Source of the DNA: Eledone cirrhosa
Lineage: Eukaryota
Direction of reading: 5' to 3'
Length of the DNA stretch: 64,000 nucleotides
Assembly (NCBI GenBank): GCA_964016885.1
Contig: OZ024764.1
Coordinates: 18,042,001 to 18,106,000 of the forward strand
Below, piece by piece: positions 19,076 to 22,000 of the stretch. Under the pieces are notes generated by a model. That model did no database searches. It was given only the letters and a program-made list of their open reading frames with translations, and was not told the origin of the DNA. Each line of letters begins with the position of its first letter. Position 1 is the stretch's first letter. A program made the translations under genes and the position numbers.

Positions 19076-22000
19076 ATGGTAAGTTTGTTTTTACATGAAA
19101 CAACAATTGGTGTATTTTTGGTACCTCATGCCACTGTCTGTCTGTTTGTCTGTGTTTATCTATGTGTATGTATGTATATATATATATATATATTATATAT
19201 ATATTATATATTATTTATATATATATTTTATATTATATTATATATTATTTATATATATATTATATATTATTTATATTATATATTATTTATATATATATTA
19301 TATATTATTTATATATATATTATATATTATTTATATTATATATTATATATTATTTATATTATATATTATATTATATATTATTTATATATATATTATATTA
19401 TATATATATATATATATATATATATATATTATATATATATTATATATTATTTATATATATATTTTATATTATATTATATATTATTTATATATATATTATA
19501 TATTATTTATATTATATATTATTTATATTATATATTATATATTATTTATATTATATATTATATATTATATTATATATTATTTATATATATATTATATTAT
19601 ATATTATTTATATATATATTATATATTATATATATATTATATATTATTTATATTACAGACACATTCACCGCAACACATATATACACACGATAATAAACAC
19701 AGATACACACACACACACACTCAGACATACATACACACATTCACCTCGACACATATGCACACACACACTCAGACATACACAGACACATTTATATATATAT
19801 TATATATTATTTATATATATTATATATTATTTATATATACATACATATATATTTATGTATATATACATGTATATGTATGTATATATGTTTATATATAATA
19901 TATGTGTTTATATATATATGTATACACACACACACACACACATATATATTTTCTGTATTTAACCTTTATGATCCTGTCTTAATTTATGTACCCCACCCAC
20001 CCCCGAAGAAGGGCCAAAGCCCAACACGTTGAACTTTCTTTCGAACTTTCTTTCCTCTTTTCCATATAAAGCATGAAACTAGGAAGACTTTTTGAACCTC
20101 TGTTTGTTGTTTCCTTGAACTATATATATATATATATATATATATATATATATATATATATATACATACATATACACACACACATATATGTATATATATA
20201 TATATATGTATATATTATATATATATATATCTGATATATATATATACATATATGATATATATATATTATATATCTGATATATATATATATATATATATAT
20301 ATGATATATATATACATATATGATATAGATATATATCTCTGATATATATATATCTCTGATTCATCATCATCATCATATATATATATACATATGATATATA
20401 TATATATATATATCTTTTACCTGTTCCAGCCATCCGGCTGAGGCCATGCTGGGGCACCACCCATGTTGCTACACATTTTATCTCCAGCTTGTATTGGTTG
20501 GCCACTGGTGTAAGGGGGAGTTTGTTGCTGTTGCCCTTAGGTTTCCCTTGAACCTTGCTGTGGGCTCATATAATATATATATAAATATATATATATTTAT
20601 ATACGATATTAACAAATGGAAACTATATTTATAAAACCATATTTATTTCATTATACATATTTCAAGGACACCAAGTTAAATTATGGTGTGCTTTCATCAG
20701 ATAAAATATAATATAGAGCAGTTTTATAAATAAATATTGACATACCCTTAAAGAATGCAACCATTACTGTTGGAAGTCCCGCATAGTGAAATGGTCGCAT
20801 TCTTTAAGGGTATGTCAATATTTATTTATAAAACTGCTCTATATTATATTTTATCTGATGAAAGCACACCATAATTTAACTTGGTGTCCTTGAAATATGT
20901 ATAATGAAATAAATATGGTTTTATAAATATAGTTTCCATTTGTTAATATATCGTATTTTTACTCCAATTATTTGTTGAGTGCTTTATATCAGTTATAAAA
21001 ATATTTGCTTGTTGTATCCCAACAATTTAAATATAACTTCTACATATATATATATATATATATTTATGTATGCCTGTAGTATATGCATGCATTATACATA
21101 TGTGTATACATTACACACACACAAACATGTATTATATACACACATATATATATATATATGTGTGTGTGTATAATACATGTTTGTGTGTGTGTAATGTATA
21201 CTTAATATCCTTGTGGGGTGGGATAGTTAACTGGTGAGGGGTTGGAGGGACCCTGCCCTGCTTTTGACTTACTGAATGTGTGTATGTCACCCCCACAGAC
21301 ATACCTCCTCCTCCCCACGGGATCGTTGGGGGCTTCTCATTGTCTTTCTCCTCATTTATCCTCCTACCACCACCACCACAGGCCACCACTGTAGCCCCCC
21401 TCCCCTCTCTCTCTTCCCAATTGCAAGAAATACGGGCTTGAATATTTATACATGGTAGGGACCACACCACCACCATCACCACCACTACATCACCACCACC
21501 ACTACATCAACCCCACCACCACCACCACCACTACATCACCACCACCACCACCACCACTACATCACCACCACCACCACTACATCAACCCCACCACCACTAC
21601 ATCAACCCCACCATCACCACCACTACATCACCACCACCACTACATCACCACCACCACTACATCACCACCACCACCACTATATCACCACCACCACCACCAC
21701 TACATCAACCCCACCACCACCACCACTACATCAACCCCACCACCACCACCACACTACATCACCACCACCACCACCACTACATCAACCCCACCACCACCAC
21801 CACCACCAATACAGCCCCCTTATCAATCTTCCTCATCCCCCTCTCCCTCTCTCTACATATTCCTGACCTTGACAATCTGCTAACTCTACCCTCCACCACC
21901 TCCCTTACACTCTTCTATTTACCCCCACACTTTCCCCACCCCTCGTATCATATCATATCTGTAAACTTGCTTGTCTTTATGTATTTATCTGTCTGTGTGT

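What the first reader, a model, noticed from the sequence alone, without database searches (positions are those of the whole stretch)
20600..21045. Family H1: fold-back element with two head-to-head hammerheads and stem covariation between copies
Seen: four copies (6190-6500, 14790-14982, 20600-21045, 28440-28832) share one long arm and a shorter inverted arm, with different inversion points. Stem II is AAGC-A-C.../...G-T-CCTT in the 6.4 and 20.9 kb copies but AAGC-G-C.../...G-C-CCTT in the 28.6 kb copy, an A-U to G-C compensatory pair. The loop has diverged while CUGAUGA, GAAA and the 8-bp stem I are kept. Known: PLE insertions often carry an inverted, truncated partial repeat. Inference: the ribozyme was under selection in the source elements, and the fold-back arises at each insertion.
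Basis: partly seen in the sequence, partly recalled or inferred. Interest (0 to 1): 0.75.

Follow-up and report, generated by a model that had tools for sequence, protein, structure and literature searches.

The report
Hydra-clade Penelope ends with hammerhead fold-backs
This hairpin-shaped repeat is two back-to-back copies of the end piece of a known kind of jumping gene (a Penelope-like element) that carries a predicted self-cutting RNA fold, and the fixed places where its copies start and stop suggest the two arms are likely copied separately from the front end of the element's RNA.

Summary
Confirmed, and largely explained. H1 is the hammerhead-bearing terminal repeat (pLTR) of a 4.1-kb Penelope-like retrotransposon: it lies directly upstream of the ORF in 27 of 30 ORF-start loci. 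Sister-subfamily copies have intact 742-aa ORFs with a telomerase-like RT fold and the Hydra-clade motifs. A strict hammerhead pattern has 47,747 matches in this genome (control 0). Breakpoints vary and there is no TIR/TSD, so it is not a MITE. The two hammerheads cannot work together: a transcript of the fold-back is one long hairpin. I infer two internally primed cDNAs running off the transcript's start. Opposite-strand hammerhead pairs, inverted pLTRs, one-sided tails and an octopus Hydra element are published. This scan noted similar end patterns before on other families of this genome. No RNA data; cleavage untested.

The parts
20602..20788 (-). Copy 3, short arm: pLTR from about -137 to +51 relative to the hammerhead cut; begins at the initiator-like boundary and ends at the short 3' end
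20789..21043 (+). Copy 3, long arm: pLTR from about -114 to +138; includes the tail
20847..20911 (+). Type I hammerhead: stem I 20847-20854/20904-20911, CUGAUGA 20855-20861, stem II and loop 20862-20891 with a C·C mismatch, GAAA 20892-20895, near-palindromic stem III, predicted cut after 20903
   Evidence: covariation
20644..20708 (-). The same hammerhead in the inverted arm; predicted cut after 20652 on the minus strand
20957..21043 (+). Tail of about 87 nt between the two fixed 3' ends; in full elements it continues for 48 nt to the ORF's ATG
20781..20788 (-). Initiator-like boundary (family form YCACTATCC, here with one change) where 5' ends pile up; inferred transcription start at 20787
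   Evidence: the start itself is inferred
20570..20601 (.). (TA)n-rich target, left flank
21044..21062 (.). (TA)n target, right flank
6186..6503 (.). Copy 1 (subfamily A): long arm on minus strand (from -27, no complete hammerhead), short arm on plus strand (-99 to +51, hammerhead core at 6404, cut after 6452), 4-nt overlap at the junction
14790..14984 (.). Copy 2 (subfamily D): long arm on minus strand 14790-14952, truncated inside stem II; short arm on plus strand 14953-14984; no complete hammerhead
28440..28833 (.). Copy 4 (subfamily B): short arm on minus strand starting at the ACTATCC boundary (28619), long arm on plus strand from about 28622; two complete hammerheads (cuts after 28490 minus, 28692 plus)

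Best explanation
H1 is the hammerhead-carrying terminal repeat of a 4.1-kb Hydra-clade Penelope-like retrotransposon, and each fold-back is likely made at insertion, when both ends of a cut (TA)n target prime reverse transcription at two internal sites on the element's RNA and the two cDNAs are joined head to head. Shown: the parent element; the order hammerhead, short end (+52), long end (+140), ATG 48 nt further; (TA)n targets; one short and one long end per fold-back; non-nested arms; short overlaps at the junction; and a 5' pile-up at a conserved CACTA(T/C)C motif. Inferred: that motif is the transcription start of the pLTR promoter, so priming on the upstream pLTR yields cDNAs that run off the RNA's 5' end after about 190 or 280 nt (the short H1 copies), while priming on the downstream pLTR yields the longer, randomly truncated copies. 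Also inferred: the ribozyme is maintained in the source elements and would cut as a dimer (self-complementary stem III) or with protein help, and in a fold-back copy it is silenced by arm-to-arm pairing.
For: Parent: H1 tail directly upstream of the ORF in 27 of 30 ORF-start loci, with the hammerhead core in 20 of 30. L202 = inverted arm + pLTR + ORF + 3'UTR + pLTR, hammerheads 4,091 nt apart. Intact 742-aa ORFs in a sister subfamily whose pLTR is 88% like H1 (L367, L369). Model pLDDT 86; best fold matches are telomerase RTs (Foldseek E 1.2e-9; VIA Z 17.8, rmsd 8.7, 354 aligned). Ends: two 3' end classes; TA repeat at 159 of 182 arm ends; one short plus one long end in 42 of 49 adjacent pairs, and in 30 of 33 not selected on the tail (p = 7e-7 against 0.5). 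In 26 of 42 mixed pairs each arm holds sequence the other lacks. Junction overlap of 1-10 nt in 30 of 49. Arms mostly share one haplotype: 28 of 178 discordant at polymorphic columns against 0.435 +/- 0.046 for random partners. 5' wall: 19 of 49 subfamily-A arms start within 11 nt at the motif, 2 in the 54 nt upstream (p = 2e-14). Subfamily B: 14 of 29 rows start within 8 nt of its motif, none in the 69 nt upstream; these rows include duplicated insertions. The motif is kept at offsets -136, -129, -114 and -102 in diverged subfamilies. Literature: two internal RT start sites bounding the tail and extension of both target strands in vitro (PMC11167929, parts 1-2 of 4); Penelope transcription starts inside the pLTR (PMC2377424, passages); Inr-like TCACT in a rotifer pLTR (PMC3846280, passages). 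Ribozyme.
Against: No transcript start or cleavage was observed; both are inferred from DNA copies. The cap-G test is inconclusive: G precedes 12 of 42 arms that start exactly at the motif (p = 0.001 against local background), but several Gs are explained by the other arm, and only 1 of 8 independent joins to a (TA)n run has it. A TATA-like word sits about 30 nt upstream in one subfamily but not clearly in the others. 7 of 49 pairs are short-short or long-long, and 16 of 42 mixed pairs are nested, which snap-back could also give. A minority of pairs, window copies 1 and 3 among them, differ at family-polymorphic sites (6 of 37 at an AT indel, 4 of 15 at a CpG site), which one shared template does not explain without recurrent mutation. 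No intact ORF was seen in subfamily A itself (L202-L204 are frameshifted). Covariation reaches E < 0.05 only for 3 of the 6 targeted positions, and E >= 1.9 over all 1,035 pairs. The GIY-YIG domain is assigned by motifs only.
Confidence: 0.68

Rival explanations
1. Same element, but the inverted arm comes from self-priming: a cDNA or antisense RNA folds back on itself and is copied, as proposed for rotifer Penelope palindromes.
For: Proposed in PMC3846280 (Discussion passage). Arms usually share one haplotype. Short overlaps and palindromes at junctions. 16 of 42 mixed pairs are nested.
Against: In 26 of 42 mixed pairs, window copies 1, 3 and 4 among them, neither arm is contained in the other, so one cannot be a copy of the other. 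Self-priming does not by itself explain one short plus one long end in 30 of 33 pairs.
Confidence: 0.12
2. The short copies come from non-autonomous master copies or small (possibly circular) retrozyme RNAs that start at the motif, mobilised in trans by the PLE, and not from the 5' end of the full mRNA.
For: Short copies far outnumber ORF-bearing ones. One short head-to-tail cluster was seen (L335). Retrozymes are described as PLE derivatives (10.64898/2026.07.22.740005, part 1 of 5; PMC7229834, passages).
Against: Tandem short units are rare: one cluster among the 100 exact subfamily-A matches listed. The wall is at the same motif in several subfamilies, and the motif is part of the full element's pLTR. 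A circle cut and re-ligated at the hammerhead would not give ends at -136, +52 and +140.
Confidence: 0.14
3. The 5' wall is an RT stop at RNA structure or a favoured microhomology join, not a transcription start.
For: A predicted hairpin spans the motif in read-through RNA (-16.5 kcal/mol for 130 nt). ACTAT can pair with (TA)n or with the other arm, and recurrent 3-nt AGT joins occur.
Against: RT would meet the 3' side of that hairpin near -75, not at -136. Far more AT-rich stretches at -90 to -50 are not favoured. The motif is conserved while its flanks diverge, and almost no ends lie just upstream of it.
Confidence: 0.05
4. H1 is a MITE of a DNA transposon and the hammerhead is incidental.
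For: Small size, inverted repeats, high copy number, TA flanks.
Against: Inner breakpoints vary and the outer ends are two different sequences, not a TIR pair. Only 19 of 50 arms sampled had an inverted partner by my thresholds. The sequence is the pLTR of an RT-coding element. Stem II covaries.
Confidence: 0.01

Closest known systems
Hydra-clade PLEs, including Hydra-1_Obim of Octopus bimaculoides (Craig et al. 2021, PMC8557442; section 11, passages, and supplement part 2 of 59 read)
   Same: C-terminal endonuclease; RW[K/R], DKT, CxCX5C, CxxC and CxH motifs; no CCHH pair; (TA)n targets; type I hammerhead with a palindromic 4-bp stem III; inverted 5'-truncated copy and one-sided tail.
   Different: Unit is 4.1 kb (1.9-kb AT-rich 3'UTR) against 'generally <3 kb'. 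Hammerhead sequence is unlike the one listed for Hydra-1_oBim, which is noted there as having no pLTR. Tail is about 87 nt against 30-40. At least 47,747 hammerhead matches, whereas the paper reports few families.
[quoted passage not shown]
   Same: Type I, short palindromic helix III implying dimers, many consensus families with compensatory changes, most motifs in truncated copies; dual motifs 100-700 bp apart on opposite strands already reported.
   Different: No extra base between 9 and 10.1. First stem II pair is mostly A-U or G-U (62 of 70) rather than G-C. A C·C mismatch at the fourth position in 66 of 70. Long stem I.
PAc Poseidon element, internal RT initiation (Frangieh et al. 2024, PMC11167929; parts 1-2 of 4 read)
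   Same: Two RT start sites bounding the tail, AT-rich target, both strands extended, predicted dimer, hammerhead just upstream.
   Different: There the start sites lie inside the ORF; here both ends lie 5' of the ATG. The parts read do not model how inverted copies or short solo pLTRs form.
Adineta vaga Penelope pLTRs (Arkhipova et al. 2013, PMC3846280; passages read)
   Same: Head-to-head inverted pLTRs, tail on one of them, microhomology joins, Inr-like TCACT in the pLTR, solo pLTRs.
   Different: There the inversions are read as self-priming on an antisense template and solo pLTRs as recombination or deletion products; here non-nested arms and the 5' wall argue for two primed cDNAs running off the RNA start.
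LINE-1 twin priming (recalled; not read here)
   Same: Both target ends prime cDNA on the RNA; products are joined by microhomology, giving a 5' inversion.
   Different: As recalled, L1 arms do not overlap and the second priming site is random; here arms overlap widely and both sites are fixed.

Membership tests
EN+ Penelope-like element | Single ORF with a telomerase-like RT | tested here: met
   742-aa ORF with YRDD; best fold matches are TERTs. The intact ORFs are from a sister subfamily; subfamily-A ORFs seen are broken.
EN+ Penelope-like element | C-terminal GIY-YIG endonuclease | tested here: inconclusive
   VVY...YVG motif and conserved downstream residues (motif label from PMC8557442). 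No Pfam hit. The single-domain model was too poor to search (pLDDT 45).
EN+ Penelope-like element | pLTRs from partial tandem, inverted 5'-truncated copy, one-sided tail | tested here: met
   L106, L202-L204; 27 of 30 ORF starts preceded by H1; mixed ends.
Hydra clade | RWK motif at the N-terminus | tested here: met
   RIRWR here; RWK or RWR across homologues.
Hydra clade | DKG changed to DKT | tested here: met
   DKT at 118.
Hydra clade | CxCX5C linker; CCHH absent (no cysteine pair between GIY and YIG) | tested here: met
   CNCRNKSNC at 601; one cysteine between VVY and YVG.
Hydra clade | [quoted passage not shown] | tested here: met
   CDLCIEE at 699; N...CRH at 720-728.
Hydra clade | Insertion into (TA)n; canonical hammerhead | tested here: met
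   159 of 182 arm ends in TA repeats.
Hydra clade | Generally short (<3 kb; a tendency in the paper, not a rule) | tested here: not met
   Unit 4,091 nt.
Hydra clade | RT tree placement with reference Hydra elements | not tested
Type I hammerhead ribozyme | CUGANGA, GAAA and UH core with three stems | tested here: met
   position 7 seen as U, A, G or C.
Type I hammerhead ribozyme | Covariation in the helices | tested here: met
   Stem II only. Stem I and core were largely fixed by my search pattern, so their conservation in that sample is not an independent test.
Type I hammerhead ribozyme | Self-cleavage at the predicted site | not testable with these tools
   Needs an in vitro assay.
MITE | Matching TIRs at fixed ends with a TSD | tested here: not met
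   Outer ends differ (short versus long end), inner breakpoints vary, many copies are single-armed. A TSD cannot be read inside (TA)n.
Non-LTR retrozyme | Non-coding head-to-tail tandem units of 150-450 nt, each with a hammerhead | tested here: not met
   One short tandem cluster among the 100 exact matches listed; the family has a coding parent.

The most novel reading that the evidence does not exclude
Short PLE fold-backs are 'strong-stop' products. The PLE protein primes from both ends of a cut (TA)n target at two fixed sites in the mRNA's own 5' leader and copies the same RNA twice up to its capped start, and the two cDNA ends are then joined. The thousands of H1 copies would thus be a fossil map of the transcription start and both priming sites of a Hydra-clade element, giving one mechanism for inverted pLTRs, one-sided tails and solo pLTRs. 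The conserved C·C mismatch would mark a hammerhead variant specific to this lineage.
Probability: 0.55. Interest if true: 0.55.

Novelty: new member of a known kind. Interest (0 to 1): 0.38.

Why it matters
The object is a known kind, but how PLEs make their inverted and tandem insertions is an open question (PMC8557442 Discussion passage; PMC11167929). This family offers intact ORFs, tens of thousands of dated products and three fixed coordinates (start, short end, long end). These make a two-cDNA run-off model directly testable by 5' end mapping and by the published in vitro assay. The family also supplies a very large natural covariation set for a PLE hammerhead. For annotation, such copies look like MITEs or microRNA hairpins and are neither.

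Tried and rejected
Rfam scan: only microRNA-type matches on AT repeats and hairpins among the 150 of 264 rows shown; no hammerhead row seen. A GIY-YIG-like ORF joined to an H1 arm in L010/L031 first looked like the parent; it belongs to a separate 781-aa family (43% identity) whose loci hold no H1 next to the ORF (1 of 30 loci is that junction itself, 2 more have unrelated nearby copies; 1 of 12 has a nearby copy), so I rejected it. Sequencing runs: no RNA holder listed. Contigs of 4 of 6 runs laid on part of the element show presence only, in three organisms, and say nothing on starts, strand or cleavage. Pfam and PDB sequence searches gave no RT or endonuclease hit. The single-sequence model of the C-terminal domain was too poor to search. 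The wide profile search of protein representatives was not run. Cap-G test: inconclusive. Two-template test: most pairs share a haplotype, so 'two different RNAs' is rejected as the rule; the CpG control had only 11 cells. Co-folding two hammerheads gave a slightly lower energy than two monomers (-40.2 against -37.2 kcal/mol) but not the stem III-swapped dimer; the stem III duplex alone is -2.2 kcal/mol, so the dimer rests on analogy. In the subfamily-B count the three 'short-short' rows (L304-L306) are one duplicated AT-rich palindromic piece and were not used. Paper searches for Penelope + twin priming + inverted, Penelope-like + hammerhead + octopus, hammerhead ribozyme + cephalopod and Penelope + promoter/start/pLTR listed no paper stating the run-off model; subscription papers (for example Arkhipova 2006, Evgen'ev and Arkhipova 2005) are not searched and were not seen. 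The octopus repeat paper PMC13282606 (passages) has no occurrence of 'hammerhead' or 'Hydra'. Supplements of the bioRxiv preprint were not seen; supplements of the other papers were not read except PMC8557442 (search hits and part 2 of 59).

Full report
OBSERVATION. Copy 3 is a fold-back with arms 20601-20956 (94.7% over 361 columns, junction included) plus an 87-nt extension on the right, flanked by (TA)n. My motif scan of both strands found six hammerhead-like sites in the window: five with an 8-bp stem I (6404+, 20855+, 20700-, 28643+, 28539-) and one weak site at 2999. So copies 3 and 4 have two complete hammerheads, copy 1 has one and copy 2 none. One arm folds into the three-way hammerhead (z -3.2). 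The whole copy folds into one hairpin of more than 160 bp (-265 kcal/mol), so the two ribozymes cannot act together and the sense one would be hidden in a read-through RNA.

COPY NUMBER. The genome is 3.0 Gb. A strict pattern for stem I, core and stem III, with stem II left free, has 24,036 + 23,711 matches and 0 for the reversed control. The exact 49-nt hammerhead of copies 1 and 3 occurs 3,142 times; that of copy 4 occurs 186 times. Among the 100 exact subfamily-A places listed, 20 form head-to-head pairs within 300 nt.

PARENT ELEMENT. Longer copies extend 5' through more than 1.5 kb of AT-rich non-coding DNA into an ORF. Searching with the ORF start gave 30 loci. In 27 the H1 tail lies directly upstream, with the ATG 48 nt after the long end, and in 20 the hammerhead core is there too. 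L202 shows the full layout: inverted arm, pLTR, ORF (611 aa to a frameshift), 3'UTR, pLTR with tail, hammerheads 4,091 nt apart. A sister subfamily has intact 742-aa ORFs behind a pLTR 88% like H1 (L367, L369; 6 loci picked by long open frame from the 150 listed). The model of that protein is confident (pLDDT 86, 24 sequences) and matches telomerase RTs best. The protein has RIRWR, DKT, YRDD, CxCX5C, one cysteine only inside the GIY-YIG-like motif, CxxC before the conserved E and CxH after the conserved N. These are the features given for the Hydra clade (PMC8557442 section 11), whose table already lists an Octopus bimaculoides member. One homologue carries a source name from that species, which fits a cephalopod genome; that is an inference. 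The tree test was not run.

COVARIATION. From the first 100 pattern matches on contig C1, fetched as 87 loci, I took 88 distinct sites, dropped 4 with internal deletions and kept 70 distinct rows anchored on the core without gaps. In my own R-scape-like test (G-test with APC, tree-based null, 100 simulations) these four pairs rank 1, 10, 3 and 2 of 1,035 column pairs. E over the six stem positions is 0.011, 0.072, 0.036 and 0.011; E over all pairs is 1.9 or more. Parsimony finds only 3 branches with a simultaneous double change. The pair counter on 33 hand-picked rows gave 98.8% cells paired, all five stem II pairs with changes on both sides, and 42 such cells against 15.6 +/- 2.8 in shuffles and 1-8 in slid controls (related rows inflate this). 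Core and stem I were fixed by the pattern. A harvest by a downstream anchor gave 307 sites, 214 strict and 93 not; the latter are mostly truncations or scattered single changes, and position 7 occurs as U, A, G or C (the loci were still largely found through the core). Selection in the source elements is supported; activity is not shown.

ENDS AND BREAKPOINTS. Arms end at two sites, about +52 and +140 from the cut, in TA repeats in 159 of 182 cases (15 ORF-lead ends set aside). Of 49 adjacent head-to-head pairs, 42 have one short and one long end, 4 long-long and 3 short-short. Among the 33 not selected on the tail, 30 are mixed (p = 7e-7). In 26 of 42 mixed pairs the short-end arm reaches further 5', so neither arm contains the other and snap-back copying cannot make them. 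Junctions overlap by 1-10 nt in 30, are blunt in 4 and carry 1-23 extra nt in 15 (BLAST overlaps include chance extension). Paired arms mostly share a haplotype: 28 of 178 discordant cells at polymorphic columns against 0.435 for random partners (55 pairs, with 5 long-range pairs and one duplicate). Window copies 1 and 3 are among the discordant minority. A fold-back partner was found for 19 of 50 core-selected arms, a lower bound.

THE 5' WALL. Among 49 subfamily-A arms chosen only on the core, 19 start within -136 to -126, 2 in the 54 nt upstream and 9 in the 76 nt downstream; the other 19 start further upstream. The wall is the A of YC-ACTA(T/C)C. That motif is kept at -136, -129, -114 and -102 in diverged subfamilies, and truncated copies of those subfamilies start on it. 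The left arms of copies 3 and 4 both start there. It resembles an initiator (consensus recalled; an Inr-like TCACT is noted in a rotifer pLTR), and D. virilis Penelope starts transcription inside its pLTR. An untemplated cap G was not shown.

MECHANISM. The best reading joins these facts to the in vitro work on PAc, where RT starts at two internal sites that bound the tail and both target strands are cut and extended. The upstream pLTR starts an RNA at the motif, and the two target ends prime at +52 and +140. With no RNase H domain (recalled for PLEs) the same RNA can be copied twice; cDNAs from the 5' leader run off the start or stop short, and their 3' ends join through 1-10 nt. Priming on the downstream pLTR gives the long, randomly truncated copies. 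The ribozyme's role in the cycle is open: in PAc it was dispensable in vitro and needed protein, and PLE hammerheads with a palindromic helix III cut weakly and as dimers.

WHAT IS KNOWN. Opposite-strand hammerhead pairs 100-700 bp apart and compensatory changes among families, head-to-head inverted pLTRs with a one-sided tail, and Hydra elements in octopus are in print. The run-off explanation was not found in the searches named under Tried and rejected. Earlier notes of this scan report two fixed ends and an RNA-start boundary for other families in this genome; I looked them up after reaching this reading, and they are unchecked. No note matched this sequence or place.

VERDICT. A real and well-supported feature: a new, very abundant member of a known kind, with a testable mechanistic signature. 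Interest 0.38.

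Noticed in passing
L031:955-1701; L094-L105: A second PLE family with many intact 781-aa ORFs, near-identical pLTRs and inverted copies, and the same Hydra-type motifs (RWK, DKT, CxCX5C); my scan found no canonical hammerhead in its own repeats. It looks recently active. In L031 an H1 arm is joined head to head to a truncated copy of it (nesting or a template switch).
   Followed up: partly
L337 (also L322, L324, L336, L353), junction between arms: Short reiterations of the 5' boundary motif (several near-tandem 11-nt units in L337) fill the junction, as if the cDNA end re-primed repeatedly at the RNA start.
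   Followed up: no
window 20865 and 20888; all subfamilies: A C·C mismatch at the fourth position of stem II is kept in 66 of 70 rows while its neighbours covary; a candidate tertiary contact with the internal loop of the extended stem I.
   Followed up: partly
L335 (G000:C1:168375700-168380500): Cluster of short H1 units, some head to tail, with complex junctions; a possible start of a retrozyme-like array.
   Followed up: no
L106 and L202, 3'UTR: The element's 1.9-kb 3'UTR carries its own microsatellites ((TA)n, (TTAAT/TTTAT)n, (CT)n), which vary in length between copies.
   Followed up: no
window 10614-13388 and 40525-42036: Two copies of an RT-coding LINE-like element (RTE-like by recalled motifs), 99% identical, in opposite orientation 29 kb apart; older fragments at 1860-2315 and 50271-50669.
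   Followed up: no
window 56247-64000: Array of an 82-bp satellite, copies 94-100% alike.
   Followed up: no
window 28230-31580: Exons of a probable 4-hydroxyphenylpyruvate dioxygenase gene (label recalled; Pfam Glyoxalase only at E 0.027); copy 4 sits in one of its introns with its long arm in the sense direction.
   Followed up: partly
window 9753-9905, 3893-3959, 21104-21202, 46774-46844: Other near-perfect hairpins picked up by microRNA models below their thresholds; probably fold-back copies of other repeats.
   Followed up: no
window 2999-3032: Weak hammerhead-like match (4-bp stems I and II), unrelated to H1.
   Followed up: no
window 39815-40630 (minus): Open frame of 271 aa with a CCCH-type zinc-finger-like motif (recalled); probably a host exon.
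   Followed up: no
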